A DNA stretch of 64,000 nt from Candidatus Bathyarchaeia archaeon (lineage in GTDB: Archaea > Thermoproteota > Bathyarchaeia > Bathyarchaeales > Bathycorpusculaceae), in contig JAVZIQ010000003.1 in assembly GCA_038871175.1 (NCBI GenBank), positions 1 through 64,000 of the forward strand, in the 5' to 3' direction. The notes under the pieces are model-generated. The model saw nothing but the letters and a program-made list of their open reading frames with translations, was not told where the DNA came from and searched no databases. Below are positions 20,881 through 61,729 of this stretch, piece by piece; position 1 is the first letter of the stretch, and each line of letters begins with the position of its first letter. The position numbers were made by a program, and so were the translations under genes.

Positions 20881-21311
20881 ATGTTAAATTTGCTATTTAA
20901 TAAGAATAGTCTGGGTGAGAGTGTGCCTAAAGAGGCTTTGTCTAAAGATGAGGAGACATTGCAGGTTTTGAAGGAGATCAAGGCTTTGCTGGAGCCTAAG
21001 CCAGCTCCACCAGCTCCGCCGCCTCCTAAGGGCCTTTTGAATGAGTTCTTAGACTTTTTATCCAAGTACAAGGTTATGGGCATGGCTGTAGCCTTCATCT
21101 TAGGCTTTACCTTGGCGCTTTAGTTCAGGCCTTAGTAGAGGACTTAATCATGCCGATAATAACGCTTGTTTTGCCAGGCGTTCAGTGGGAAGCTCTTGCC
21201 GTGGGGCCCTTCCGCATAGGCCATTTCATAGGTGCATTAATAACATTCATTATTGTGGCTTTCGTCATCTTCCTAATCGTGAAGATAACTAGAAAATGGG
21301 GAATTGAGTAA
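20881..21311 (+). pseudogene. mscL: MscL-like large-conductance mechanosensitive channel, frame broken at a T-run (21106-21108)
   Basis: Frame 1 ends ...GLLNEFLDFLSKYKVMGMAVAFILG. A second frame continues YLGALVQALVEDLIMPIITLVLPG...FIIVAFVIFLIVKITRKWGIE* (MscL TM1, loop, TM2). One extra T would fuse the two frames. Confidence 0.7.
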
Positions 21312-22495: not shown

Positions 22496-22872
22496 TTATA
22501 GGTTAACCTTAAGCCTAAAGGGTTCACTTTGGGCTTTAAATACTTTTACAACTCCATTATCAGCGTTAACCCCCCACAGGTCTCCTGTTTCTATGAGCCA
22601 AAAGGGTTTTCTCAAATTTATGAACCATGAACGCGTTTGCTATTACACCGCTGAAAGCTATTACGGTTTCATCTTCAAAATTGATTATGGTTTCAGGGAC
22701 GTTCCCACCCTTAAAAACTATTTGGAAATGCCATTGTCCAGTGGTCAAACCCCTTATCTTATGGGAAGACTAATATCTTCTCCACAATTATTCCCGTGTA
22801 TGGGTTAATCCCCTGCAGTTATTGATATTAGCATCTGGTCACGAGGCTTCCTTTTGCCTTACCTTTGCTCAT
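22496..22872 (-). pseudogene. Decayed AcnX small subunit (DUF126 swivel domain)
   Basis: Hand translation gives MSKGKAKGSLVTRC*YQ*LQGINPYTGIIVEKILVFP*DKG, then a frameshift to TTGQWHFQIVFKGGNVPETIINFEDETVIAFSGVIANAFMVHKFEKT, then a frameshift to LIETGDLWGVNADNGVVKV. This is collinear with the intact paralog 51865-52299. Confidence 0.8.
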
Positions 22873-24116
22873 GTTTGCCACCTGCCCTTGACTGCTGCAT
22901 TAATGCAATTTTCTGTTGAGGCGAGTATGGATCCCATGTTGAAGAGGCCGTGGGAATAGTAAACTTGCTTTACAGAGTTTGTAACCACCACGTGAGCTCC
23001 CTGCTCTTTAAGGTAGGTGTACATCCCTCCTGAAGGACATGTGTCGGCTAAAACTAGCCCTCCAGCCTTTCCTATCATATGGGAGTATCCCATGCGGTCT
23101 GCATAGGATTTTGTGGCCTTTGATGTAAAAACCCAAAGCTTAACTTTAGGGTGAACCTTTTTCCCCTCAAGCAGAATTGCAATTTCCTCTATTTCCTGCA
23201 ATGTGCAGTGGGGACATCCGAAAATTACATAGTCAACCTTTTCCTCGTCCGTCATCCTTAGTTCTTCATAAACATTTTCCACTTCTGAGGGGGTGATTGT
23301 TATCTTTTCATCAGGTTTATCTCCTCCGAAAGCCTCCTTAAGCGTCTGAGCTTCAGGCGTTATGCCCACAGCGTGAAACATGGGAACAGCGCCGGAAACT
23401 GGAAGTGCATAGGCTATGGAGAGGAGGTTTTGAAGAGATATGCTTTTAGGTAAGTTGGCGAAAACAGGAATTTCATCTCCGACAACCCTGCCAGTATGGT
23501 AGGCCATAGCCGCATAGTCTGTCGAAGTGTAATTTTCCAGTTTAAGCTGACTAACGTCGACGAGCACATTTCCAACCCTGTTTTCAGGCAAATGCATTCC
23601 ATACTCTGGAGTTTTTCCAACAACGGCTGCAGCAATGGCTGAGTGGTCACCCTCCCTATTCGTCATGGCGCCAAAAACCGAGTTGGCAAAAACTTCGCTA
23701 ACCGATTCAGCCCAAGCTAAATGCTCACCCTTCCTCGCTAGATTTCCGACAAGAAAGTGTTGACAAGTGTAAAAAAGCTTAAACCCAAGCTTCCTCAAAG
23801 CTTCATCAATTCTAAGCTGCATCTTCCTAAAAATTTCAGGAACAACCATCTCACGCCAAAACTCAAAGTCAAAACACTGAGGATTCACAGTGGCAAAAAC
23901 TTTAGCTTTAACTCCTGATTCAGCAAACTCCTCCAACCACTCAACCCCCTCCACCCCCAAAACCCCAAAATTTCCAGCCATATGAGCACTGCTTACAGGT
24001 ATCAACCTCTCAGCATCATAAAGATCTCCCAAAGCAACCAAAATTTCCATAGCCTTCTCCACACCAGAACCAAATTCCCCCTCAAGCATTCTCTCCTCTT
24101 CCCCAGTCAAATACAT
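22869..24116 (-). CDS. Aconitase X large (catalytic, DUF521) subunit, copy 1
   Basis: 415 aa. Roughly 70 percent identical by eye to ORF 50618-51877. Conserved blocks include IPVSSAHMAGN, GAMTNREGDHSA, GKTPEYGMHLPENR, FGCPHCTLQEIEEIA. Confidence 0.85.
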   Translation of the reverse strand: MYLTGEEERMLEGEFGSGVEKAMEILVALGDLYDAERLIPVSSAHMAGNFGVLGVEGVEWLEEFAESGVKAKVFATVNPQCFDFEFWREMVVPEIFRKMQLRIDEALRKLGFKLFYTCQHFLVGNLARKGEHLAWAESVSEVFANSVFGAMTNREGDHSAIAAAVVGKTPEYGMHLPENRVGNVLVDVSQLKLENYTSTDYAAMAYHTGRVVGDEIPVFANLPKSISLQNLLSIAYALPVSGAVPMFHAVGITPEAQTLKEAFGGDKPDEKITITPSEVENVYEELRMTDEEKVDYVIFGCPHCTLQEIEEIAILLEGKKVHPKVKLWVFTSKATKSYADRMGYSHMIGKAGGLVLADTCPSGGMYTYLKEQGAHVVVTNSVKQVYYSHGLFNMGSILASTENCINAAVKGRWQT

Positions 24117-24646
24117 GCCATACCCCCATACCCCATCATCTTCAACCCAGTTATATATTATTCAAATTTGAAGAAATCAAAACAGATCCAGAAGAAAACA
24201 CTAATCCAAAAGCTTCAAGGCCAAGTACAAAAAAGTGTTAAGGAAGCAAAAATAAGGCAAATTCCGAAAATAACACACAAATCCATTAGTAAGCCTTTCA
24301 AAGCTTACTTTTGAAGCGCAAAAAATCCATAGGCTCAAATCAGAGAGACTGAATTTTAGGCTTAGAAAATGATTGCCTCATATCTTGATGCTTTGAAAAA
24401 ATCTGCGACTTAAAAAAGAACTTCACAAAACACACCTAAAGCTTTTTTGCATACATGAAACCAGGATGGTTTGGAAGTTTGTTTGAAAAGCTTAAGAACC
24501 TTTTAGAGTTAAAGGATATATTTATCAGTAGCAGCAGCGAAGAAACCGCATTTAAATAGCTAAAAGCTTAGTTTCTTGATGGCTTTATTATCAAATTTCT
24601 ATCGGATGTAGACATTTCCAAAATTTTGTCTGAACCAAAAAGTAGG

Positions 24647-50617: not shown

Positions 50618-51877
50618 TTGAGAATAAACATGTATTTGACTAATGAAGAGGAAAGGATGCTTAAGGGAGACTTTGGCCGAGGAATACAAAAGGCCATGGA
50701 AATTTTAGTGGCTGTTGGTGATATTAACGAGGCTGAGAGGATGATACCAGTTAGCAGTGCGCATATGGCCGGGAACTACGGACCGTTAAGGGATGAAGGA
50801 GTGGAATGGTTGGAAGAATTTGCTGAATCCGGTGTCAGTGCCAAGGTTTTTACAACGGTGAACCCGCAAGGTTTCGATTTTGATATTCCTAGGGAAATGC
50901 AGGTTCCGGAGAAATTTAGAAAAATTCAGTTAAGAATTGATGGAGCCTTGAGAAAAATTGGGGTTAAGCTTTTTTACACTTGCCAACAGTTTCTAGTTGG
51001 CAACCTGCCTAGGAAGGGTGAGCATTTGGCTTGGGCTGCATCGGAGAGCGAAATCTTCGCCAACTCTGTTCTTGGAGCCATGACGAACAGGGAAGGCGAC
51101 CACTCTGCCCTGGCAGCGGCAGTTACAGGTAAAACCCCGGAGTACGGTATGCATTTGCCTGAAAATAGGATCGCTAAGGTGCTTGTCGATGTATCTGGGC
51201 TTGATTTTGGAAGCTTAACTCAGACGGACTATGCGGCTATAGGGTACCATGTGGGTAAGATTGTTGGCGAAGATATTCCAGTGTTTGTCGGCTTGCCTAA
51301 AGATATTTCCCTTCAAAACCTTCAAGCTTTAGCCTATCCTCTTCCAGTTTCCGGCGCTGTGCCAATGTTCCATCTGGTGGGAATAACGCCGGAGGCTCCA
51401 ACACTCGAGGTAGCTTTTGGAGGGGATAAACCTGAAGATAAAATATCAGTTGCAGCCTTTGATATAAGGAATGTTTATGAGGAGTGCCGCAGGACAGAGG
51501 AGGAGAAAGTTGATCTGGTAATTTTTGGCTGTCCCCACTGCACCTTGCAGGAAATAGAGGAAATCGCATTAATGCTGGAGGGAAGAAAAGTTCGTAATGG
51601 AACAAAGTTTTGGGTGTGCACCTCTAAGGCTACTAAGGCGTTTGCTGAACGTATGGGCTATGGAGATTTAATAAGAAGAGCTGGAGGTTTACTTGTGGCT
51701 GACACATGCCCTTCCGGAGGGCCATATGCCTATCTGAAGGAACAGGGAACCAACGTTGTTGTCACTAATTCCTTGAAGGCAGCTTACTATGCCTATGGCC
51801 TTTTTGGAATGGGTACTGTATTCGCCTCCACCAAAGATTGTGTGGAGGCTGCTGTTAAAGGGAGATGGGAAAAATGA
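50618..51877 (+). CDS. Aconitase X large (catalytic, DUF521) subunit, copy 2
   Basis: Paralog of 22869-24116. The probable start is ATG 50630 (MYLTNEEERML). Confidence 0.88.
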   Translation: MRINMYLTNEEERMLKGDFGRGIQKAMEILVAVGDINEAERMIPVSSAHMAGNYGPLRDEGVEWLEEFAESGVSAKVFTTVNPQGFDFDIPREMQVPEKFRKIQLRIDGALRKIGVKLFYTCQQFLVGNLPRKGEHLAWAASESEIFANSVLGAMTNREGDHSALAAAVTGKTPEYGMHLPENRIAKVLVDVSGLDFGSLTQTDYAAIGYHVGKIVGEDIPVFVGLPKDISLQNLQALAYPLPVSGAVPMFHLVGITPEAPTLEVAFGGDKPEDKISVAAFDIRNVYEECRRTEEEKVDLVIFGCPHCTLQEIEEIALMLEGRKVRNGTKFWVCTSKATKAFAERMGYGDLIRRAGGLLVADTCPSGGPYAYLKEQGTNVVVTNSLKAAYYAYGLFGMGTVFASTKDCVEAAVKGRWEK

Positions 51878-52299
51878 CTCAGAAAATAGTGTTAAAAGCC
51901 AAACCGGTATGTAAGGGTAAAGCTGAAGGGGAAGCAATGGTTACCAAAACGCCGATATCCATCACAGGAGGTCTAAACCCCTATGATGGTAAAATTGTGG
52001 AAAGGGGACACCCACTTGAAGGGAAAAGTGTTGCTGGAAAAATATTGGTTTTCCCTCACGGTAAAGGCTCAACTACCGGACCATGGCAGTTTTATGTTGC
52101 CTATAAACGTGGGAACGCTCCTAAAGCCATAATCAACGTTAAAGCAGAGGCAGTGGTTGCTGTCAGCGCCCTAATTACAAACACTCCCATGGTACATATG
52201 CTAGAGAAAAACCCCTTAGAGGTTATAGAAACAGGAGACTACGTTGTCGTCGACGCCGATAACGGAATTGTAGAAATAACCAAGCAAAACAAACATTAG
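51865..52299 (+). CDS. Aconitase X small (swivel, DUF126) subunit, intact
   Basis: GKAEGEAMVTKTPISITGGLNPYDGKIVE...GKILVFPHGKGSTTGPWQF. The start may be ATG 51874, overlapping the large-subunit stop (ATGA). Confidence 0.85.
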   Translation: MGKMTQKIVLKAKPVCKGKAEGEAMVTKTPISITGGLNPYDGKIVERGHPLEGKSVAGKILVFPHGKGSTTGPWQFYVAYKRGNAPKAIINVKAEAVVAVSALITNTPMVHMLEKNPLEVIETGDYVVVDADNGIVEITKQNKH

Positions 52300-52311
52300 A
52301 TTATACACTCC

Positions 52312-52740
52312 TTGTTTCTGTTAGTTTTAAATAAGAAGCCATTCCAAGAATCAAGTAGCCATCATCGCAATTATCGTTACAATCGCCAGAATTGCAGTTG
52401 TTACTTGCTATCACCAACACTCCCGTTGCCAAGCCCTACTCCTGCTAATCCTACTCCGGGTCCGCCAATTAGGAAATTTTGGATGGGGTGAAGAGGTAAA
52501 CAACATGGGTGTGTGCTTGGAAGGAAATTGCAGCTTGTTATTGAAGGAACTAATCGAATCAGGTAAAGTTACTCATTACTTGGGTTCTCCATTAGTAGAA
52601 TTATCCATGCCATACTCAGCCATAACGTCTTCGCTTTTAATGTGGAAACACCTGAGCTGCTGGATCAGCTTTAGACTATTTATGTTTCGGCACACATGGA
52701 GCTATAATGTATCTTTAACTGAAAAACTGTGGCTTCCTTA
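52312..52740 (+). pseudogene. Internally deleted relic of a LIV-type solute-binding-protein gene (paralog of 56913-58301)
   Basis: Nucleotide collinearity with the intact gene at its signal-anchor/TP-linker region (GTTTTAAATAAGAA...CCTACTCCGGGTCCGCCAAT), at a KKLVELDKVD-like block and at GGCACA(CA)TGGAGCT..AA.GTATCTTTAACTGAAAAA. About 1.4 kb has been reduced to about 0.43 kb, with frame breaks. Confidence 0.7.
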
Positions 52741-53583
52741 TCTTTTTCCCTCTTTTAGTAGGGGTATTTCGCCTAGGTTGAGGTCTTTATCTATTTTTAT
52801 TTCTTCCAGTATCCAGGGTTTGTAGCCTTCCTTTTCTATTTTAACAGTGTATGTTTGGTCTTTTTCCAAGTTTTCTATCCAGAAATCTCCGAAAATGTCT
52901 GTTTGAGCAGTGTATTCCCTTCCAGTTTTCAGGTTTATGACTGTTACATCTGCTCCTTCTATGCATTCGTCTATTTCTGGGCTGTAAACCTCCCCTGCTA
53001 AAAATGGCTTCGGCAGGTTTAAATAGTACACTCTAGGCTTGGTTTTCGATTCAGGCTTTAAAACCTCAGCCTTCCCAATTAAATCCTTCAGCTCTTCCTC
53101 TTCCGCGAATTGTATGGCGTTGTGGGGGCAAACCTCAACGCATCTGGGAACCCTTAACTCATAAAGCTGGTCTATCCCGTCTAGAAGGTGGGCGCATCCG
53201 GTGCATTTCTGAGCAACATTCAAATCTTCATTAAAGTATATGGCGTTATAGGGGCAAGCCGTTAGGCATTCCCTGCAACCATTACATTTTTCAGGATTTA
53301 TCAATACTAGGCCGTCAACCCTCTTTGTTATGGCTTCAGCCTTGCAGACTCCCATACATGGAGCATCATCACAATGCATACACAAAACTGGAATGTAGGT
53401 TACCCTAACCTTAGGAATAGTTCCCCTCTCAAACTCCTCCATTTTAAGCCAGAAATGCCCAGTATCAGGCTGAGGCTTAGCATAAGGAGTCCAGTCGTTG
53501 CCTACATGCTCATCCTTACACGCTATTTGGCAACAATAGCACCCATTACATTTGGCAACGTCTATAACGAAGGCTTTTCCCAT
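52738..53583 (-). CDS. 4Fe-4S subunit of a molybdoenzyme, BthL (pyrogallol transhydroxylase beta)-like, with C-terminal beta-sandwich domain
   Basis: Ferredoxin-type Cys clusters (CNGCYCCQIAC, CMHCDDAPC, CNGCRECLTACP, CTGCAHLL, CVEVCP). The blocks NVAQKCTGCAHLLDG and KPRVYYLNL match my memory of Pelobacter BthL. The C-terminal ~80 aa looks like a carboxypeptidase-regulatory/transthyretin-like fold. Confidence 0.8.
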   Translation of the reverse strand: MGKAFVIDVAKCNGCYCCQIACKDEHVGNDWTPYAKPQPDTGHFWLKMEEFERGTIPKVRVTYIPVLCMHCDDAPCMGVCKAEAITKRVDGLVLINPEKCNGCRECLTACPYNAIYFNEDLNVAQKCTGCAHLLDGIDQLYELRVPRCVEVCPHNAIQFAEEEELKDLIGKAEVLKPESKTKPRVYYLNLPKPFLAGEVYSPEIDECIEGADVTVINLKTGREYTAQTDIFGDFWIENLEKDQTYTVKIEKEGYKPWILEEIKIDKDLNLGEIPLLKEGKR

Positions 53584-53589
53584 TCTTTT

Positions 53590-56181
53590 TCACCCCACTA
53601 CCCATGTTTCATAACATAGATTCACGTCGGGATGTAGTTTACGTTTGAATGCTTCTGGATAGGTTTTCATAAGTTCAGTGATGTCTGTTTTTTCAATTTC
53701 TACGAGGATGCCGCTGCAAACTTGGCCCACATTGTTTTTGGACATGGGTTTGTCTGGAACTATTAGGTCGATGGCTCCGCCTCTGTCTATTAGGGGGTTT
53801 ATTGATATTAGGTCGGCTCTTGCTCCGTGGTGTACTTGCACGGTTCCAGCCATTATTCTCTCGGTTATGTATGCTGCGCAGAGTACTGTTCCGCGTTCGT
53901 TGTAGACTTTAACTATGTCTCCATTTTTTATTCCTCTTTTAACGGCGTCTTTTGGGTGGATCCATACTGGTTCGTACATGTAGCCGTCTGGCCCTTTTAT
54001 TTTGCAGGTGGGTATTTCCCTTAGCCATGTTATGTCGTCTCCTTGTGCGTGGTGCCGCCATTTCGGATGGTTTGACTCTAGGAGCAGCGGGTATTTTTTG
54101 GCTCTTGGGTGGAGTAGGCTTTCTTGATGGGTTTCACCGTAGGGTATGTAGCGTGGAATGGGCGGCCTTTCCTCATCGTCTGGAAAGTGTTCAGCCAAGC
54201 CTGTGGATACTATTTCAAGTTTGCCTGTTGGGGTTTCAAGGCCTCTGCCTTCTGGCAGTTCGTAATACCATGTTAAGCCCGGTTTTGAGCCCCATGTTTT
54301 GCCGTGGGTTATGGCTACTTTGTTTTGAATTTGCTTCCACTCTTCCCATGTTGGATGGTCTGGGATGAATATTTTCCTTTTCTTAAATTCCTCCCAGCTT
54401 ATTCCATATTTTGTGGCAGCGTAACTGGCTTCATAGAATTTTTTCATAAACTCTTCGGGTGGTGGGAAGGCTTTTTCAACGCCCATTCTCTGGGCTATTA
54501 AGCGGCATATTTCATAATCGCTTTTTGATTCTCCTATTGGCTCAATGCATTTTTCTTGGTATGCAATGGCGTTTACTGCTGTTCTGCTGGTTATTATTAA
54601 GTCTTCATGTTCGAAGATTGTCTGTGCGGGAAGTATTATGTCAGCGAATGTTGCTTCGTTTTCAAGCCAAGGTGTAACTGCGACGATGAACTCTATTTTT
54701 GGGCTTCTAAATGCTTCGAGTATTCTGCTGTTCCAGCAGGTGATGTAACAGCCGTTTGCATTCCATACCATATGTATTCCCGGATGCCCTTCCGGTGGAA
54801 AAGTGTACTTCTTAAACTGGTCCTCTCTAGGCGCGCTAATAGCCCCTGTGCCATACCAGGTTATGGGAGGGTTCAAAATGGCGTCGGCTACGAGCACTTT
54901 TGGCACAATCATGGGAGAAACCACTTCAAATGTGGATCGGGCCATGGGGTTAGTCATGTAACCTGTTGTGGTTTCTGGATATTGAGGAACTGACGCAACA
55001 TTTTTTCCTATACCGCCTACTCGCATTCGTATAAATTGTCGTCCTGGTTTTCCAAGTCCCTGCATTGCTAGGCATATAACCTCCAGCCTTGCTGTTTCGT
55101 GGGAGTAGGGCCCCCTAATTTTTGGCCCGCCGAAATGCACCGCTATGGATGTTCTCTTTTTGGCCCATGTTCTAGCTAAAGCCTTTATGGTTCTGGCAGG
55201 TATCCCTGTGATTTTTTCAGCCCACTCAGGGGTTTTCGGTATTCCATCTTCTTCTCCCAACACGTATTTTCGGAATTCTTCAAAGCCTATACAATGGGTT
55301 TTAACATAATCCTTCTCGTAGGTTCCATCCTTTAACCATATATATGCAATTGCTAGGTATAATGCTCCGTCGGTGTTGGGTTTTATGGGAATCCACTTGT
55401 CTGCATGTATTGCGGCTGCAAAGTTGCAGTCGGGAGCTATGGCTATCAATTTTATACCGGCTTCCCTAAACCAGCGGCATACAACGCTGCCTATCTGTCC
55501 GGAAAATCCTGGAACGGTTGCTTCAGGATCGCAGCCTGTAAGTATAAGCACTTCCGTGTTTTCCAATACATCGTCGAAGATGGCGTCCTGATAGGCCTCT
55601 CCTGCATGGACGCCTCCTCCCATCCCCCATACATGCATGGCGCCCCAGTAATAGCCTTCCCAGCTGTCGGGATTTCTAACCTGCTGGGTGAATCCTCCAA
55701 GCTGGCGGAAAAGTTCGTGGTGAATGCCATGAGTTGTCTGGACGGATCCTCCCTGGCCGTGGCCGTCATCCTGTACAAGCACCGACCATAATCCATATTT
55801 TTCTTTTATGCGTTTTAACTCCCCTTCAATTATGTTTAGGGCTTCCTCCCACGTAATTCTAACGAATCCGCTTTTACCTCTGTTCTGGGGATTCCTATCC
55901 TCAGGGCTCCAATCCACCCTCTTCAACGGGTACTTAACCCTGTTAGGCGAATACACACGCTTTTTATAGGCTAGGCTAACCCAGTAGGGCAGAGTTTTAG
56001 CAGGCTGACTGAAAGACTTTCCGCGAGCCCTAATCTCATATAGCCTTATGCCATCGAAATGGAGAGGCTTAACCCTCAATATTTTGCCATTCTTAACATG
56101 AACCTCCAAAGGCAAAGCTGAAACTGAAATCCCGCCCAAACCATGACTCACATAACATAATTTGACTTCTTCTTCCATCAT
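53590..56181 (-). CDS. Molybdopterin oxidoreductase catalytic subunit (DMSO reductase superfamily), transhydroxylase (AthL)-like
   Basis: 863 aa. It has no N-terminal Cys-x2-Cys-x3-Cys Fe-S motif (a single Cys in the first 100 aa) and no twin-arginine signal. The start V.VKNGKILRVKPL...ARGKSF is like the Fe-S-less members. All + strand ORFs in this interval are shadows. Confidence 0.8.
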   Translation of the reverse strand: MMEEEVKLCYVSHGLGGISVSALPLEVHVKNGKILRVKPLHFDGIRLYEIRARGKSFSQPAKTLPYWVSLAYKKRVYSPNRVKYPLKRVDWSPEDRNPQNRGKSGFVRITWEEALNIIEGELKRIKEKYGLWSVLVQDDGHGQGGSVQTTHGIHHELFRQLGGFTQQVRNPDSWEGYYWGAMHVWGMGGGVHAGEAYQDAIFDDVLENTEVLILTGCDPEATVPGFSGQIGSVVCRWFREAGIKLIAIAPDCNFAAAIHADKWIPIKPNTDGALYLAIAYIWLKDGTYEKDYVKTHCIGFEEFRKYVLGEEDGIPKTPEWAEKITGIPARTIKALARTWAKKRTSIAVHFGGPKIRGPYSHETARLEVICLAMQGLGKPGRQFIRMRVGGIGKNVASVPQYPETTTGYMTNPMARSTFEVVSPMIVPKVLVADAILNPPITWYGTGAISAPREDQFKKYTFPPEGHPGIHMVWNANGCYITCWNSRILEAFRSPKIEFIVAVTPWLENEATFADIILPAQTIFEHEDLIITSRTAVNAIAYQEKCIEPIGESKSDYEICRLIAQRMGVEKAFPPPEEFMKKFYEASYAATKYGISWEEFKKRKIFIPDHPTWEEWKQIQNKVAITHGKTWGSKPGLTWYYELPEGRGLETPTGKLEIVSTGLAEHFPDDEERPPIPRYIPYGETHQESLLHPRAKKYPLLLESNHPKWRHHAQGDDITWLREIPTCKIKGPDGYMYEPVWIHPKDAVKRGIKNGDIVKVYNERGTVLCAAYITERIMAGTVQVHHGARADLISINPLIDRGGAIDLIVPDKPMSKNNVGQVCSGILVEIEKTDITELMKTYPEAFKRKLHPDVNLCYETWVVG

Positions 56182-56211: not shown

Positions 56212-56876
56212 GATACTATTTTTGCTTGCTTTAAACTTAAATTTTTCCACTCTCAGAATTTTCTTGATAGACCCTTCAAATATTATCTTTCCTTTTCCAC
56301 AACATGCAATAATTAGCAAGTTTAATCGCTAGACGGGTGGAATGTAGATAAAAAGACATACTCAACGCTTCAGACATCTAAAAAGCATCTATTGCTTGCT
56401 TGAATATACCTATTTTCTTTTCACAATCCCGAACGTAAAAGTAGCTTGAAAAATAGGTAAAGGTATTTATCAATTCATCTCCGCAGCCTAAGGTTAATCC
56501 TGAAAGATCCGCCCCTAACGCTTTGGTCGCAAGAGCAGCTTTTGCTTAACTCCTATGTCAGTCATTAACACCTAACAGCCATGATGGTTTCACTACTTAA
56601 ATGCCATTCACTTTGTTTATCGAAACCGCAAAGGAAAGCCTAATGTTGAATATTGCAGCGTCATTTTCAAATTTTTAACATTGAAGAGAAAGCACAAATT
56701 CTTCAGGTACCGTTTTGAAAGAGCGTTTAATGCTGAAGTTTTCACAGCTGAACCGAAAAATCTTTAGTTGATCCCTTCTGACGACTCACATCACGCTGGC
56801 GGCATAGAGCAGTTTGCAACAAGTAACTAAGCAAAGAAGCGTTACATTACTTTCATCATTTATATTAGCCCGCAAA

Positions 56877-56890
56877 TTTTATATTTATAA
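56877..56890 (+). promoter_or_regulatory. TATA-box-like element for the SBP gene
   Basis: TTTTATATTTATAA sits about 25-30 nt upstream of the in-frame GTG at 56913, which would give a leaderless or near-leaderless mRNA. Confidence 0.4.
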
Positions 56891-56912
56891 GGGTACGATA
56901 GACATTAATCAG

Positions 56913-58301
56913 GTGATACTGTTGTTAGTTTTAAATAAGAAAGCCATTACAAGAATTCAAGCAGCTGTCATCGCTGTTATTGTTATAATTGCCATAATTG
57001 CAGGTGTTGCTTACTATTTCGCAACTCTCCCGTCGCCAAGCCCTACTCCTGCTACTCCTACTCCTGCCACTCCTACTCCTGCCACTCCCACTCCTGCCAC
57101 TCCCACTCCTGCCACTCCCACTCCTGCCACTCCCACTCCTGCTACTCCCACTCCTGCTACTCCTACTCCGGGTCCGCCAATCAGAATAGGCTTAATACTT
57201 CCTTTGACAGGGGCATCTGCTAGGTTAGGGAAAGAGGTTCATGATGGAGCGATGTTAGCGCTTGAGGAGATAAATGAGAAGGGCGGTATGCTCAGGAGAA
57301 CAGTGGAGGTAGTAATCGAAGATGACGAGGGAAACCCTGACAAGTGCTTAAGCGCGGCTAAGAAGTTAGTTGAATTAGATAAAGTTGACTTGCTGACGGG
57401 TGTACTCCATTCGGGCAATGTTGTTGCAATAAGTGAGTATGTATCAAGTGTTGGGATACCCTACATTTCTCCCATTTCATCCGGTCCTGTGTTGGTTTAT
57501 ACGCAAAATCCTCAGAAATTCAGAAATTTCTTCACGATACATCCCTATTATGACGACGTTGCAAAATTGGGATTAAAGTTTCTGACAGATGTCGTAAATG
57601 CTAAGACCTATATGTATATAGGGGAGACCTTAACATTTTCTGTGAGAAGTGGCGAATTCTTAAGGGTTTTTGCTGCCGACAGAAAAATAAACTGTTTAGG
57701 CGAGATAATTATGCCTGCGGGAAGTAAGGACTTTAGTGAAGCCATAATAAAGGTAAGGGAAGCTAAACCTGACGCGGTTATTATTAATATCTTTAGCGGG
57801 GCAGAAGTAACCCTTGCGAGACAGATTTATGAAAATAGGCTGCCTGTACCATACTTTGCCATTATGGCTTCACTTTCAATGTGGGAGACAGCTGAGCTTC
57901 TAGGAGACGCCTCAGATTATTTGGCCTTCGGCACATGGAGCTGGAACGTATCTTTAACTGAAAAAACTGTGCCATTCTTTAACAAGTTTTATAAGAAGTA
58001 CGGCTATCGAGCTTGCGGGCTAGAGGGGCCAGCTGGATATGACCTTATGTATTTTGTAGCAGCTGCGGTTGAGAAGGCAGGCACATTGGAGTGGAACGCC
58101 GTTATTAAAGCCTACGAAACAGTGGAAATAGTTGGGGTAAGAGGAATTACTAAAATAGACCCCTCAGACCATGGAGCCATTTACTGGGCTCCAGGGTATA
58201 TAAATGGCGTATTGGCACAGTGGATGAGTCGAAAGCCTTACGTGATCTGGCCGCCTGAGATGGCTGAGAAGAGCTATCAGAAAGCGCCTTGGATGGAGTA
58301 A
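56913..58301 (+). CDS. ABC transporter substrate-binding protein, branched-chain amino acid (LIV, Peripla_BP_6) type, membrane-anchored with a (TPATP)n linker
   Basis: N-terminal TM anchor AAVIAVIVIIAIIAGVAYYF, a Thr/Pro repeat, then IRIGLILPLTGASARLGKEVHDGAMLALEEINEKGG. The ORF track starts at 56814, but I prefer GTG 56913. Confidence 0.85.
   Translation: MILLLVLNKKAITRIQAAVIAVIVIIAIIAGVAYYFATLPSPSPTPATPTPATPTPATPTPATPTPATPTPATPTPATPTPATPTPGPPIRIGLILPLTGASARLGKEVHDGAMLALEEINEKGGMLRRTVEVVIEDDEGNPDKCLSAAKKLVELDKVDLLTGVLHSGNVVAISEYVSSVGIPYISPISSGPVLVYTQNPQKFRNFFTIHPYYDDVAKLGLKFLTDVVNAKTYMYIGETLTFSVRSGEFLRVFAADRKINCLGEIIMPAGSKDFSEAIIKVREAKPDAVIINIFSGAEVTLARQIYENRLPVPYFAIMASLSMWETAELLGDASDYLAFGTWSWNVSLTEKTVPFFNKFYKKYGYRACGLEGPAGYDLMYFVAAAVEKAGTLEWNAVIKAYETVEIVGVRGITKIDPSDHGAIYWAPGYINGVLAQWMSRKPYVIWPPEMAEKSYQKAPWME
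57045..57170 (+). repeat. Tandem 15-bp repeat ACTCCTGC(C/T)ACTCC(C/T), 8 units plus a partial unit, in frame (TPATP)n
   Basis: Read directly from the sequence. Units differ only at two synonymous positions. The relic paralog at 52.4 kb has a single unit. Confidence 0.9.
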
Positions 58302-58364
58302 AATAATTCAAACTCTAAACCACCTTTTTTATCTCTCAAATTTGGCCAGTTGTTAGTTTAAGTG

Positions 58365-59078
58365 TCAAATGCCTAAATATGCCCTTTTCACCTGCTGATT
58401 TGCTAGTAGTTCTCTACAGCTTCCCTCTAAAACCACATTTCCAGTTTCAAGGATATACGCTCTGTCAGCTATTCTTAGAGCTGAATATGCATCTTGTTCA
58501 ACAAGCAGAATTGTGGTGCCTTCTTTTCTGATTTCTTGGACACTTTTGAAAATTTTGCTTTTAACTATTGGCGACAAACCAAGGGAGGGTTCATCCAACA
58601 TTAAAAGTTTAGGTTTAGCCATTAAAGCCCTTCCAATAGCCAGCATTTGTTGTTCTCCTCCGCTTAGGGTTCCAGCTCTTTGGTTTCGCCTTTCTCTTAA
58701 AACTGGAAAGAGGTCATAAACCCTATTCAAATCCTTCCTTACTTCATCTTTATCTTTGCGGAGATAGGCGCCCATTTCAAGGTTCTCTAACACTGTCATA
58801 TCTGGGAAAAGCCTCCTCCTCTCTGGGCATAGGGAAATCCCGCTTTTAGTTATATTGTATGGTGAAAGTTTATGAATTTCTTTCCCCATGAAATTAATTG
58901 AGCCTTTACTAATTCTCTTCAGTCCGAAAATTGACCTTAGGAGGGTTGTTTTTCCAGCTCCATTAGGTCCCAAAACCGCTACAAGTTCTCCTTCTTTCAT
59001 GCTTAAACTGACATTGTTTAAAGCTAAAGCTGCCCTGTAATGAACCGTAATGTTATCGACGCTAAGCAGAAACTTCAC
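58365..59078 (-). CDS. livF: LIV-type ABC transporter ATP-binding protein (LivF-like)
   Basis: Walker A GPNGAGKTT, signature LSGGEQQ, Walker B LLMLDEPS. Overlaps livG by 17 nt. Confidence 0.88.
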   Translation of the reverse strand: MKFLLSVDNITVHYRAALALNNVSLSMKEGELVAVLGPNGAGKTTLLRSIFGLKRISKGSINFMGKEIHKLSPYNITKSGISLCPERRRLFPDMTVLENLEMGAYLRKDKDEVRKDLNRVYDLFPVLRERRNQRAGTLSGGEQQMLAIGRALMAKPKLLMLDEPSLGLSPIVKSKIFKSVQEIRKEGTTILLVEQDAYSALRIADRAYILETGNVVLEGSCRELLANQQVKRAYLGI

Positions 59079-59778
59079 CTCCCAAGTAAGCTTCTATAAC
59101 TCTTCTATCTTCAGTTATTTCTAATGGTTTCCCTTCAGCTATTTTTTCGCCGTCGCAAATAACAACTACCCGATGTGAAAGTTTCATTATTACCCTCATC
59201 ACATGCTCAACAATCACTATTGTTAGACCCTCATCATTCAATTTCTTCACAAGCTCCATCAATTCGGAAACCTCTTCGAAGCTTAGCCCGGCGAAGGGCT
59301 CATCTAGCAAAAGCAGGCTAGGCTCAGTTGCCAAGGCCCTAGCTATTTCAAGCTTTTTTAATTCGCCATGGGGCAAATTTTTGGCCAACTCATTTTTCCT
59401 ATGGTCCAATTTCATAAGCGCAATAATTTCCGCAGCCTTATCAGTTGATCTAATGCCTCTTTTCCCATACAAAGGTATAGAAACGTTGTCTATGACGCTT
59501 AGGTTGCCGAATGGATTAACAAGTTGGAATGTTCTGGCTATTCCCTGTCTAACAACTAGGTGTGGTGGAGCTCTGGTTATATCTTTTCCTTTAAAAACTA
59601 TGGATCCAGCGTCAGGCTTAATAAACCCTGTTATCAAATTGAATAGTGTAGTTTTACCCGCCCCATTTGGCCCTATTAAACCTAAGATTTCGCCTTCTCC
59701 CACACTTAAATCTACATTTTTGACGGCAACAAGACCTCCGAAAGACTTTGTTAAACCCTTAACTGTTAAAACATCCAA
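59062..59778 (-). CDS. livG: LIV-type ABC transporter ATP-binding protein (LivG-like)
   Basis: Walker A GPNGAGKTT, Walker B LLLLDEPFAGL, IVEHVM H-loop region. Confidence 0.88.
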   Translation of the reverse strand: MDVLTVKGLTKSFGGLVAVKNVDLSVGEGEILGLIGPNGAGKTTLFNLITGFIKPDAGSIVFKGKDITRAPPHLVVRQGIARTFQLVNPFGNLSVIDNVSIPLYGKRGIRSTDKAAEIIALMKLDHRKNELAKNLPHGELKKLEIARALATEPSLLLLDEPFAGLSFEEVSELMELVKKLNDEGLTIVIVEHVMRVIMKLSHRVVVICDGEKIAEGKPLEITEDRRVIEAYLGGEVSA

Positions 59779-59844
59779 TCAATTGCCCTCTGCTACTTTG
59801 TTAAACATGTTTACGGGTAAAGTTTTTATATTTTGCGTCAAGAC

Positions 59845-59863
59845 AATATTAACCGTTAATATT
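59845..59863. promoter_or_regulatory. 19-bp palindrome AATATTAAC-C-GTTAATATT in the livG/livH divergent intergenic region
   Basis: Perfect 9-bp arms. Lies between a TATA-like TTTTTATATTTT (59824-59835) and the livH SD/TTG start (59880). Confidence 0.45.
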
Positions 59864-59879
59864 ATAGCGAGGTTATAGA

Positions 59880-60749
59880 TTGATCGCAGTAATTGTACAA
59901 TTAATCATTAATGGTTTAATGTTAGGCGCCTTATATGCGCTCGCGGCGGTTGGGCTTTCATTAATTTTTGGCATAATGGATGTGGTAAATCTTGCCCATG
60001 GCTCTCTGCTTGCCATGGCTGCTTTTGTAACATACACATTGTCGAGTTGGTTTTTCAGTAACATTTTTGCAGCGGCAGCCTCTGCAATTTTCCTCGTTTT
60101 TCTAGTTGGAATGGTTATTGAAAGGGCAGGAGTTTATCCTTTTAGGGGTTCTGCCGTTCGATTGGTGGTAATTACCATTAGCGTGGGCAAAATCCTTGAA
60201 CAGATTATTTACATAGTGTGGGGTCCAACTTACATAACAAGCCCAATTTATGTTTCAGGATCCTTAAACTTTCTCGGCATAACAATTAGCATCTACCGGA
60301 TGATGCTCCTTGTATTAAGCGTTGTCCTAATAATGGCTTTGTGGTTTTTCATTCAGAAGTCTAAGTGGGGGAGGGCAATACGTGCTGTTGCTCAAGACGA
60401 GGAGGCTGCTTCAATTTTCGGTGTTAATATTAAACGAGTACGTACACTTACCTTCGCCCTTGCCAGTGCCTTAGCTGCAGTTGCAGGCATATTTCTAAGT
60501 TCAATCTACATGTTTCATTCAGCAAGTGGATGGGAATATCTTTCAATAGCCCTGTCCATCACAATTGTGGGAGGTTTGGGCGATGTTAGAGGAGCTATAC
60601 TCGCTAGCTTCATATTGGGAATAGTGGAGTCTTACATTGGGTATTATATTTCTCCACTTTGGCGTACAACGGTTTACTTTATTTTAATAATAATCATATT
60701 GACAATTAAGCCTTCAGGGCTTTCTGGACTATGGAGGGGCAGAACCTAA
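59880..60749 (+). CDS. livH: LIV-type ABC transporter permease (LivH-like)
   Basis: 289-aa polytopic protein. INGLMLGALYALAAVGLSLIFG N-terminus is typical of LivH. Confidence 0.85.
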   Translation: MIAVIVQLIINGLMLGALYALAAVGLSLIFGIMDVVNLAHGSLLAMAAFVTYTLSSWFFSNIFAAAASAIFLVFLVGMVIERAGVYPFRGSAVRLVVITISVGKILEQIIYIVWGPTYITSPIYVSGSLNFLGITISIYRMMLLVLSVVLIMALWFFIQKSKWGRAIRAVAQDEEAASIFGVNIKRVRTLTFALASALAAVAGIFLSSIYMFHSASGWEYLSIALSITIVGGLGDVRGAILASFILGIVESYIGYYISPLWRTTVYFILIIIILTIKPSGLSGLWRGRT

Positions 60750-61729
60750 TGTTTAAGGCAAGGTTAAAATTGAGAAGCACCGCTTTTAAACTGCTTATTC
60801 GCCTTATTCCATTAGTTATTCTTGCATTAATCCCTGCTTTTATCGAAAATGTATATTTTATTCACATCTTAATATTGTCGAATATATATGCTGTTTTGGC
60901 TTCAAGCTGGGATCTGATTTCCGGCTATACTGGTCAAGTAAGTTTAGGCCATGCCCTCTTTTTCGGAGGAGGAGCGTATATTTCAGCTTTTCTTACAATG
61001 TGGTATAATGTTCCACAACTCTTATGCCCCTTAATTGCAGGAGTTTGTATGGCTGCCTTCAGCTTGATTGTGGGAATACCCTGCTTAAGGCTTTCAGGGC
61101 CTTATCTCGCAATAACAACTTTAGCCTTCTCCCAAGCAGTAAGGTCCATAGTAATTGCCTTTCCAGATGTGACGCGGGGAGATGAAGGTATGCCTATTGC
61201 AGCTTTGGTGCTGGGGACAATCCCTAACTATTATGTTGCACTTATTCTGATGTTCGTCTTCGTAAACATAATACACTTAATTGCAAATTATTTTTATAGA
61301 ATACCCTTCATTGCAATCAGGGAAAATGAAACAGCTGCAAGGGCTTCAGGAATAAACGTCACCAAATACAGGCTTCTGTCCTTTACATTAAGTGCCTTCT
61401 TCTCCGGTATCGCCGGAAGCTTTTACGCCTACTACATGATGGCGATAACTCCAGAAGGATTATCCATAGACACATCTTTTATGCCGCTTACAATGACCAT
61501 AGTTGGCGGAATGGGAACGATAGTAGGCCCAGTAATTGGAGCTTACATCCTTGTTTTCTTAACTGAGATGCTCCGCGTTTTCATCTATAGAATACGCATC
61601 CTCATATACGCCTCATTAACCGTCATATTCATAATGCTATTGCCTGGCGGAATCCTTAAAGCCTTAAGGAGTATAGCCAAAATTCGAAAATCCCACGTTA
61701 GTAAAATTGATGTTTCTCCGACAAAATAG
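60731..61729 (+). CDS. livM: LIV-type ABC transporter permease (LivM-like)
   Basis: 332-aa polytopic protein. SWDLISGYTGQVSLGHALFFGGGAY is typical of LivM. Overlaps livH by 19 nt. Confidence 0.85.
   Translation: MEGQNLMFKARLKLRSTAFKLLIRLIPLVILALIPAFIENVYFIHILILSNIYAVLASSWDLISGYTGQVSLGHALFFGGGAYISAFLTMWYNVPQLLCPLIAGVCMAAFSLIVGIPCLRLSGPYLAITTLAFSQAVRSIVIAFPDVTRGDEGMPIAALVLGTIPNYYVALILMFVFVNIIHLIANYFYRIPFIAIRENETAARASGINVTKYRLLSFTLSAFFSGIAGSFYAYYMMAITPEGLSIDTSFMPLTMTIVGGMGTIVGPVIGAYILVFLTEMLRVFIYRIRILIYASLTVIFIMLLPGGILKALRSIAKIRKSHVSKIDVSPTK

What the first reader, a model, noticed from the sequence alone, without database searches (positions are those of the whole stretch)
22496..22872. The small-subunit gene of the first AcnX pair is decayed while its large subunit stays intact
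Downstream of the intact 415-aa DUF521 gene, in the same ATGA-coupled position as in the second locus, lies a clear DUF126 homolog. By hand translation it carries at least three in-frame stops, two frameshifts and a ~12-codon deletion, when aligned to 51865-52299. AcnX-type enzymes need both parts. They are known as cis-3-hydroxy-L-proline dehydratase in bacteria and as phosphomevalonate dehydratase of the archaeal mevalonate route. Either the intact large subunit borrows the small subunit encoded 29 kb away, or it is itself on the way to loss or a new function.
Basis: partly seen in the sequence, partly recalled or inferred. Interest (0 to 1): 0.6.

Follow-up and report, generated by a model that had tools for sequence, protein, structure and literature searches.

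The report
Dead small-subunit gene beside live aconitase-X
In this uncultured archaeon one of two duplicated two-part iron-sulfur dehydratases has lost the gene for its small catalytic part, while the large part is still kept intact by selection, so it most likely borrows the small part made by the other copy 29 kb away.

Summary
Window 22515-22872 (-) is a true pseudogene of the AcnX small (swivel) subunit. It is ATGA-coupled to an intact 415-aa large subunit (22869-24116). It carries three TAA stops, at least four frameshifting indels, and in-frame deletions of 33, 36 and 3 bp. The catalytic Ser codon is gone.

The sister species keeps the orthologue intact (143 aa), so the decay is lineage-specific. 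Substitutions look neutral: 50 derived changes against 13 in the sister, spread over all codon positions.

The large subunit is not decaying:
- dN/dS is 0.12-0.13.
- Derived amino-acid changes are 13 against 14 in the sister.
- All three Fe-S cysteines and the shared substrate residues are retained.
- There are no indels, where about 20 would be expected under neutrality.

The catalytic serine sits on the small subunit. The best reading (about 55%) is therefore that large subunit 1 pairs in trans with small subunit 2 (51865-52299), the only intact one in the assembly.

Both loci belong to an accessory, bacterial-like AcnX subclass. It lacks the phosphomevalonate phosphate loop and the hydroxyproline signature, so its substrate is unknown. 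The assembly is incomplete, and the canonical enzyme probably lies in a gap. This is a modestly interesting, testable case of subunit sharing.

The parts
22515..22872 (-). Pseudogene of the AcnX small (swivel, DUF126) subunit of locus 1 (psiS1). Its ATG overlaps the stop of the large gene. It has three TAA stops in the ATG frame, at least four frameshifting indels, and 33-, 36- and 3-bp deletions. The catalytic Ser codon is lost.
22566..22748 (-). Residual 60-codon open frame inside the pseudogene (the middle homology piece). It is called as a gene in another assembly. It lacks the catalytic Ser and has dN 0.27 against the sister orthologue. It is not a credible functional fragment.
22869..24116 (-). 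Intact AcnX large subunit 1 (L1, 415 aa). The Fe-S ligands Cys118, Cys301 and Cys360 are retained, as are Asn78, Glu137, Ser138, Lys383 and Tyr387. It is under purifying selection.
24151..24160 (-). TATA-like element TAATATATAA 35-44 nt upstream of the L1 start, with a G-rich stretch (GGGGGT) just before the ATG. This is a possible own promoter and ribosome-binding site for L1, read from sequence only.
   Evidence: sequence reading; inference
50618..51877 (+). Intact AcnX large subunit 2 (L2), 72% identical to L1. Homology starts at the ATG at 50630. Orthologues are 82-85% identical in five other Bathyarchaeia. It has Ala at the position of the family-wide Glu (Tk129), with a Glu two residues later.
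51865..52299 (+). Intact AcnX small subunit 2 (S2, 144 aa, or 141 aa from the ATGA-coupled ATG at 51874). It is the only intact AcnX_swivel gene in the assembly and the proposed trans partner of L1.
56814..61729 (.). Liv-type ABC importer: binding protein 56814-58301(+), ATPases 58365-59778(-), permeases 59880-61729(+). It is a conserved neighbour of L2-type AcnX loci in other Bathyarchaeia. This is context that points to an imported substrate.

Best explanation
Locus 1 is a duplicated copy of a two-gene, accessory AcnX type II dehydratase whose substrate is unknown.

In this species its small-subunit gene was inactivated after the split from the sister species. It has drifted neutrally for roughly half to all of the time since then.

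The large subunit L1 is still maintained by purifying selection. A large subunit alone lacks the serine base and a carboxylate-binding threonine, which the swivel subunit supplies. L1 therefore most likely assembles in trans with S2, the small subunit of paralogous locus 2 encoded 29 kb away. The substrate-facing motifs of S2 are identical to those of the lost S1.

L1 and L2 differ at an active-site glutamate (WAESVSE in L1, WAASESE in L2). They are probably not redundant, which would explain why L1 is kept.

Shown: the pseudogene, its lineage-specific origin, the constraint on L1, and the non-PMDh signature. Inferred: the L1-S2 pairing and the functional difference between L1 and L2.
For: Pseudogene: the lesions are unique to this genome when compared with the intact sister orthologue and with S2.

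Neutral drift of the remnant:
- 50 derived substitutions against 13 in the sister, p = 3e-6.
- Spread over codon positions as 21/18/11.
- dN is 0.27 against 0.06 for L1.

The sister lineage keeps S1:
- G001 has an intact 143-aa gene.
- A G001-like metagenome contig is open for the 124 aa visible.

L1 is constrained:
- dN/dS is 0.12-0.13; neighbouring genes give 0.03-0.22.
- Derived amino-acid changes are 13 (this genome) against 14 (sister).
- Derived nucleotide changes are 24 against 39, mostly at third positions.
- Tree branch lengths are 0.057 against 0.065.
- L1 has no indels in 1,248 bp. The remnant has 7 in 429 bp, so about 20 would be expected, giving P about 2e-9 (my calculation).
- All three Cys ligands and E/S/K/Y/N are retained.

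Need for a small subunit: Ser62(S) and Thr63(S) are catalytic or substrate-binding (PMC8184944). ApPMDh is a 1:1 heteromer (PMC10040528).

S2 as partner:
- It is the only intact AcnX_swivel gene in the assembly.
- It is 74% identical to sister S1 overall.
- The PISITGG and FPHGKGSTTGPWQFY motifs are identical.

Unlinked large and small AcnX genes occur naturally in Methanocorpusculum.
Against: No direct evidence exists for an L1-S2 complex or for expression of L1. Reads and RNA runs could not be consulted.

The assembly is 91.6% complete. It lacks the canonical clade-I AcnX region, and even a thymidylate kinase, both of which the sister carries. A second small subunit may therefore exist unseen.

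S2 shows no sign of adapting or converting towards S1.

Only two or three L1-type sequences exist. Branch-specific selection therefore rests on small counts.
Confidence: 0.55

Rival explanations
1. L1 pairs with a different small subunit that is not in the assembly. The obvious candidate is that of the canonical clade-I AcnX (the probable phosphomevalonate dehydratase), which the sister species carries.
For: G001 has a clade-I small-then-large pair on contig C48. The neighbours of that pair, including thymidylate kinase, have no counterpart in this assembly, which has no Tmk at all. All relatives examined have a clade I or clade II copy.
Against: Clade-I small subunits are only about 41% identical to S2. 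They carry different substrate-facing motifs: SFLGG and GSTVGSY, against SITGG and GSTTGPW. S2 is far closer to the lost S1.
Confidence: 0.12
2. L1 now works without any swivel subunit, in a new catalytic or non-catalytic role such as an Fe-S-dependent sensor or binding protein.
For: L1 is under selection although its cognate partner is dead. The L1 lineage has a longer stem branch than the L2 lineage (0.2 against 0.096). It also has a remodelled Glu motif compared with L2 and bacterial relatives.
Against: The same remodelled L1 occurs in the sister species together with an intact S1, so the remodelling predates the loss. There is no change in rate after the loss. All residues needed for the two-subunit active site are kept. 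No precedent was found in the AcnX papers read.
Confidence: 0.1
3. L1 is simply the next gene to decay. It is intact only because too little time has passed.
For: Its partner gene is dead. A nearby MscL-like gene also carries a frameshift.
Against: The remnant accumulated 7 indels and about 50-77 substitutions in roughly 400 bp. Over the same period L1 took 0 indels and only 13 unambiguous amino-acid changes, the same number as in the sister. Its substitutions are biased to the third codon position.
Confidence: 0.07
4. Assembly artefact or strain mixture: an intact S1 allele exists in the population and the consensus shows a broken minority form.
For: The genome is a metagenome-assembled draft of 80 contigs. 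Reads could not be inspected.
Against: The lesions include 33- and 36-bp deletions, a two-base codon change to a stop, and a four-fold excess of substitutions at all codon positions. Sequencing error does not produce these. The flanking genes are clean. The same sequence stands in a second public assembly, although its independence from the first is unknown.
Confidence: 0.04

Closest known systems
AcnX type IIb, phosphomevalonate (mevalonate-5-phosphate) dehydratase: T. kodakarensis TK1249/TK1248 (PDB 7CNR/7CNS) and A. pernix APE_2087.1/APE_2089
   Same: It is the best solved-structure match: E = 2e-81 for the large subunit and 2e-29 for the small. It has the same two-gene architecture. The three Cys ligands are the same, as are Asn79, Ser130, Lys361 and Tyr365. 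The Ser-Thr catalytic loop lies on the small subunit.
   Different: The phosphate-binding loop G48-V49-S50...N53 is replaced by AG-N[FY]G[VP]. The small subunit has GSTTGPW and SITGG instead of GSTVGSY and SF[LY]GG. In relatives the clade co-occurs with a canonical copy. In locus 1 the small-subunit gene is dead.
Uncharacterised bacterial AcnX type II subclasses (IIc-f of Watanabe et al. 2021), especially Desulfobacterota-type homologues
   Same: These are the nearest non-bathyarchaeal relatives, at 48-50% identity and about 418 aa. They share the H[IM]AGN[FY] loop and lack the family Glu at Tk129. L2-type loci sit next to a Liv-type ABC importer.
   Different: The bacterial forms sampled lack the third Cys ligand (ADVGAADG), whereas L1 and L2 keep it (DTCPSGG). 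No bacterial case with a decayed small subunit was examined.
[quoted passage not shown]
   Same: Same superfamily fold (E = 1e-43 to 7e-45). The small-subunit residue after Ser-Thr is Thr, as Thr72 is in AtAcnX.
   Different: NCBIfam NF051439 scores 247-259 bits against a cut-off of 700. There is no Cys-X-Cys. Ala stands where Asp203 is, and Thr where Trp35 is (PMC8184944).
Shared small subunits between paralogous large subunits, for example the Bacillus subtilis TrpG/PabA glutamine amidotransferase that serves both anthranilate and aminodeoxychorismate synthases (recalled from my own knowledge, not checked here)
   Same: One small catalytic subunit encoded at one locus would serve two paralogous large subunits.
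   Different: This is a different enzyme family. Here the sharing is inferred from gene decay and selection, and has not been demonstrated.

Membership tests
AcnX (aconitase X) large subunit, Pfam PF04412 | Full-length match above the curated cut-off | tested here: met
   L1 scores 448.8 bits and L2 scores 457.4 bits, against a cut-off of 31.5, covering profile positions 1-400 of 400.
AcnX small (swivel) subunit, Pfam PF01989 | Open frame that matches the swivel domain above the cut-off | tested here: not met
   The remnant scores 13.8 bits (cut-off 27) over profile positions 36-76 only. Homology is clear, but only across three frames. S2 scores 96-97 bits.
Pseudogene (unitary decay of one gene in an operon) | Disabling lesions relative to an intact orthologue at the same syntenic position | tested here: met
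   There are 3 stops, at least 4 frameshifting indels and 3 in-frame deletions against the intact S1 of G001. Synteny of the flanking genes is conserved.
Pseudogene (unitary decay of one gene in an operon) | Relaxed, neutral-like substitution pattern | tested here: met
   Derived substitutions are 50 against 13 (p = 3e-6), spread 21/18/11 over the codon positions. dN is 0.27.
AcnX type IIb phosphomevalonate dehydratase | Three Cys ligands of the [4Fe-4S] cluster (Tk Cys110, Cys283, Cys342) | tested here: met
   They correspond to L1 Cys118, Cys301 and Cys360, and are also present in L2.
AcnX type IIb phosphomevalonate dehydratase | 5-phosphate binding loop Gly48-Val49-Ser50 and Asn/Thr53 of the large subunit | tested here: not met
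   All 8 members of the L1/L2 clade have AG-N[FY]G[VP], with Val49 deleted. Clades I and II and Tk have [AS]GVSY.[NT].
AcnX type IIb phosphomevalonate dehydratase | Small-subunit substrate loop Ser62-Thr63-Val64 and Leu27 | tested here: inconclusive
   Ser and Thr are kept, but Val is replaced by Thr and Leu by Thr in S1 and S2 (GSTTGPW, SITGG).
AcnX type IIb phosphomevalonate dehydratase | Sole or housekeeping AcnX of the genome, serving the archaeal mevalonate route | tested here: not met
   Single-copy relatives carry only clade I or clade II. The L1/L2-type copy always comes with a clade-I-like copy in G001 and G041-G045. This genome does have a UbiD-family gene.
AcnX type IIb phosphomevalonate dehydratase | Dehydration of (R)-mevalonate 5-phosphate in vitro | not testable with these tools
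   This requires an enzyme assay.
[quoted passage not shown] | Equivalog-level match (NCBIfam NF051439) and the Cys-X-Cys, Asp203 and Trp35 landmarks | tested here: not met
   Scores are 247-259 bits against a cut-off of 700. L1 has C360-P-S, Ala47 and small-subunit Thr at those landmarks.
Heteromeric AcnX (large + small, 1:1) | Physical complex of L1 with a small subunit | not testable with these tools
   The complex is inferred from the literature (PMC8184944, PMC10040528). Structure prediction of complexes was not available.

The most novel reading that the evidence does not exclude
The orphan large subunit L1 has become independent of any swivel subunit. Alternatively, it uses S2 to build a second enzyme with a different substrate, thanks to its relocated active-site glutamate. 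In that case one small subunit would serve two distinct AcnX activities in an uncharacterised, importer-linked archaeal pathway.
Probability: 0.12. Interest if true: 0.65.

Novelty: new variant of a known kind. Interest (0 to 1): 0.4.

Why it matters
AcnX is a recently deciphered branch of the aconitase superfamily with only two known activities. Subclasses IIc-f remain without a function.

This locus is a natural experiment. One subunit gene of a duplicated heteromer has died, while its partner has stayed under selection for a long time. That argues for cross-locus subunit sharing, which a simple co-purification could test.

The work also shows that bathyarchaeal 'AcnX' genes are not all phosphomevalonate dehydratase. 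One clade lacks the phosphate loop and travels with a Liv-type importer and a PrpD-family gene. This matters for metabolic reconstructions of Bathyarchaeia, and it offers a lead to a third AcnX activity.

Tried and rejected
There is therefore no coverage, allele or expression check.

2. Does the sister species also have locus 2? The G001 contigs end exactly at both flanks of the locus (C111 at the tRNA-Ala side, C110 at the Mo-enzyme side), so this is undecidable.

3. Is the canonical clade-I AcnX truly absent from this genome? It is absent from the assembly. However, the whole G001:C48 neighbourhood and any thymidylate kinase are missing too. I therefore treat it as an assembly gap, not a loss.

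4. Gene conversion or adaptation of S2 towards S1: none seen. G000 S2 has 1 S1-like private state, no more than its orthologues.

5. A functional mini-protein from the 60-codon residual ORF: rejected. It has no Pfam hit, lacks the catalytic Ser and has dN 0.27.

6. Recoding or read-through rescue: rejected. There are too many independent lesions, plus two long deletions.

7. A PrpD homologue in this genome, which is a conserved neighbour of L2-type loci elsewhere: none found.

8. Structure prediction was not run. The tool predicts single chains only, so it could not address the L1-S2 interface.

Full report
**What is there**

On the minus strand, an intact 415-aa gene at 22869-24116 matches Pfam AcnX end to end, at 448.8 bits. 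Its TGA stop overlaps an ATG, giving ATGA at 22872-22869.

Downstream of that ATG there is no long open frame. tblastn with the intact small subunit of locus 2 (51865-52299) finds three collinear pieces in three different frames. Joint E is 7e-20, with 44-50% identity. The Pfam swivel model scores the best piece only 13.8 bits.

I aligned the DNA with the intact orthologue of the sister species and with S2. All of these lesions are unique to this genome:
- a 33-bp deletion after codon 2
- a ~3-bp deletion
- a compensating -1/+1 pair
- a 36-bp deletion
- a His codon turned into TAA
- a +1 insertion exactly at the Ser codon of the GKGST loop
- a -2 deletion

In the ATG frame, TAA stops fall at 22830-22828, 22821-22819 and 22761-22759. 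The ancestral stop lies near 22517-22515.

**Whose genome, and is the decay recent?**

The window is contig C3 of a 1.72-Mb, 80-contig draft that is 91.6% complete. Related records are Bathyarchaeia MAGs.

A same-genus genome, G001 (JBBITX01), carries the orthologous locus in conserved synteny. Its neighbours DUF5661, DUF4332, MFS and others are 87-98% identical in protein. Its large subunit is 89% identical. The small subunit is ATGA-coupled and fully open at 143 aa, and 74% identical to S2.

A G001-like metagenome contig (95% nt identity) also shows an open small subunit for the 124 residues visible. The small-subunit gene therefore died in this lineage after it split from G001.

I polarised changes with six S2-type sequences. 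The remnant has 50 derived substitutions against 13 in G001's gene (p = 3e-6). They are spread 21/18/11 over codon positions 1, 2 and 3. Its dN against G001 is 0.27.

Local dS/2 is about 0.23-0.26. Against that, the remnant has drifted neutrally for roughly half to all of the branch. This estimate is my own.

The same 5,066 nt, remnant included, stands in a second NCBI assembly, GCA_038871955.1. Whether that assembly is independent of this one is unknown.

**The large subunit is not decaying**

- Pairwise dN/dS of L1 between the two species is 0.12-0.13, with dS 0.46-0.52. Five neighbouring genes give 0.03-0.22.
- With the L2 clade as outgroup, derived amino-acid changes are 13 in this genome and 14 in G001. 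Six of each fall at sites invariant in the outgroup.
- Derived nucleotide changes are 24 against 39, mostly at third positions.
- Tree branches are 0.057 against 0.065.
- The remnant took 7 indels in 429 bp. At that rate L1 (1,248 bp) would have about 20. It has none, giving a Poisson P of about 2e-9.

I mapped L1 onto the T. kodakarensis structure (7CNR, E = 2e-81) using the residue roles in PMC8184944.
- The cluster ligands Cys110, Cys283 and Cys342 correspond to L1 Cys118, Cys301 and Cys360.
- Asn79, Glu129, Ser130, Lys361 and Tyr365 are also kept.

**Why a partner is still needed, and which one**

In TkAcnX the general base Ser62 and the carboxylate-binding Thr63 belong to the small subunit (PMC8184944). 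A. pernix PMDh purifies as a 1:1 heteromer (PMC10040528). A large subunit alone thus lacks part of the active site.

The assembly contains exactly one intact swivel gene, S2. S1 of G001 and S2 share identical PISITGG and FPHGKGSTTGPWQFY segments, and their core is roughly 86% identical by eye.

Large and small AcnX genes are naturally unlinked in Methanocorpusculum. There is no swivel gene within 6 kb of the large gene, and one copy elsewhere in each genome. Adjacency is therefore not required.

I conclude, by inference, that L1 works with S2. S2 shows no conversion or convergence towards S1. That neither helps nor hurts the case.

**What kind of AcnX this is**

A tree of 70 large subunits resolves three groups among Bathyarchaeia:
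- Clade I has small-then-large gene order and occurs across the order.
- Clade II has large-then-small order and is shared with DPANN lineages.
- A loose clade III includes L1 and L2.

Clades I and II, Tk and Methanocorpusculum all carry the PMDh phosphate loop [AS]GVSY.[NT] and W[SA]ESSAV. Their small subunits carry GSTVGSY.

The L1/L2 clade instead has AG-N[FY]G[VP] and small-subunit GSTTGPW. It scores 247-259 bits against the 700-bit cut-off of the hydroxyproline-dehydratase equivalog.

Single-copy relatives always have clade I or II. L1/L2-type copies are always extra, as seen in G001 and in all five genomes with L2 orthologues.

Outside Bathyarchaeia, the nearest relatives (48-50% identical) are Desulfobacterota-type bacterial proteins with the same loop. 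This suggests a bacterial origin.

L2-type loci sit next to a Liv-type ABC importer. In three genomes they also sit next to an MmgE/PrpD-family gene. Both loci are therefore accessory AcnX enzymes with an unknown, probably imported, substrate. They are not the mevalonate-pathway enzyme.

**Caveat on completeness**

This assembly has no clade I or II copy. However, the G001 contig that carries clade I also carries a thymidylate kinase and other genes, and none of them has a counterpart here. The assembly has no Tmk at all. The genome does encode a UbiD-family protein, so the archaeal mevalonate route is likely.

The simplest reading is that the canonical enzyme lies in the unassembled ~8%. A second small subunit may therefore exist. 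Its substrate-facing motifs differ, so it is a poorer candidate partner.

Whether G001 also has locus 2 cannot be told. Its contigs break at both flanks of the locus.

**L1 and L2 are not equivalent**

L1-type proteins read WAESVSE, with the family Glu at Tk129. L2-type proteins read WAASESE. Closer bacterial relatives read WA[SA]S[EG][ST][EQ].

PMC10040528 calls this Glu highly conserved across AcnX. Its E145A mutant of ApPMDh nevertheless kept 76% of activity.

The L1 stem branch is twice as long as the L2 stem. This fits active-site remodelling of L1 after duplication. It would give selection a reason to keep L1 after S1 was lost. This step is inference.

**Verdict**

This is a real, lineage-specific pseudogene beside a selectively maintained large subunit. 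Cross-locus borrowing of S2 is the best-supported mechanism, at about 55%. The case is modestly interesting, easily testable, and not a new kind of system.

Noticed in passing
window 20881-21311 (break near 21107): An MscL-like gene is split by a single 1-bp deletion (GGCTT-TACC here, GGCTTGTACC in G001). The G001 orthologue is an open 140-aa frame. The rest of the gene is highly conserved, so this is either a very recent frameshift or an assembly error. That contrasts with the heavily decayed AcnX remnant.
   Followed up: partly
window 50618-51877 (motif WAASESE) versus 22869-24116 (WAESVSE): L2 and its five orthologues have Ala where all canonical AcnX enzymes have the active-site Glu (Tk Glu129 / Ap Glu145), and a Glu two residues later. 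L1-type proteins have the Glu at the canonical place. Bacterial relatives also lack it.
   Followed up: partly
window 52738-56181 and 56814-61729; loci L038-L042: In other Bathyarchaeia the L2-type AcnX pair lies directly beside a Liv-type ABC importer and often an MmgE/PrpD-family gene. Here a molybdopterin oxidoreductase (AhtL-like) and its 4Fe-4S partner sit between AcnX and the importer. No PrpD homologue is found in the assembly.
   Followed up: partly
whole assembly G000; G001:C48 (locus L072): The assembly has no thymidylate kinase and no canonical (clade I or II) AcnX. The sister's contig that carries both has no counterpart here. This is probably an assembly gap, and it is relevant to any pathway reconstruction from this MAG.
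   Followed up: partly
L102:518-952: In a G001-like metagenome contig, the gene just upstream of the L1-type AcnX is listed with a DarT (PF14487) hit. That context differs from the tRNA-Ser found upstream of L1 here.
   Followed up: no
proteins P0015, P0022, P0025, P0036, P0054, P0057: Desulfobacterota-type relatives of L1/L2 lack the third Fe-S cysteine (ADVGAADG instead of DTCPSGG) and carry CPQCS. This points to a differently ligated cluster in that bacterial subclass.
   Followed up: partly
L061-L068 and L103-L105 (Methanocorpusculum): The AcnX large subunits with the PMDh signature have no small-subunit gene within 6 kb. Each genome has a single swivel gene elsewhere.
   Followed up: partly
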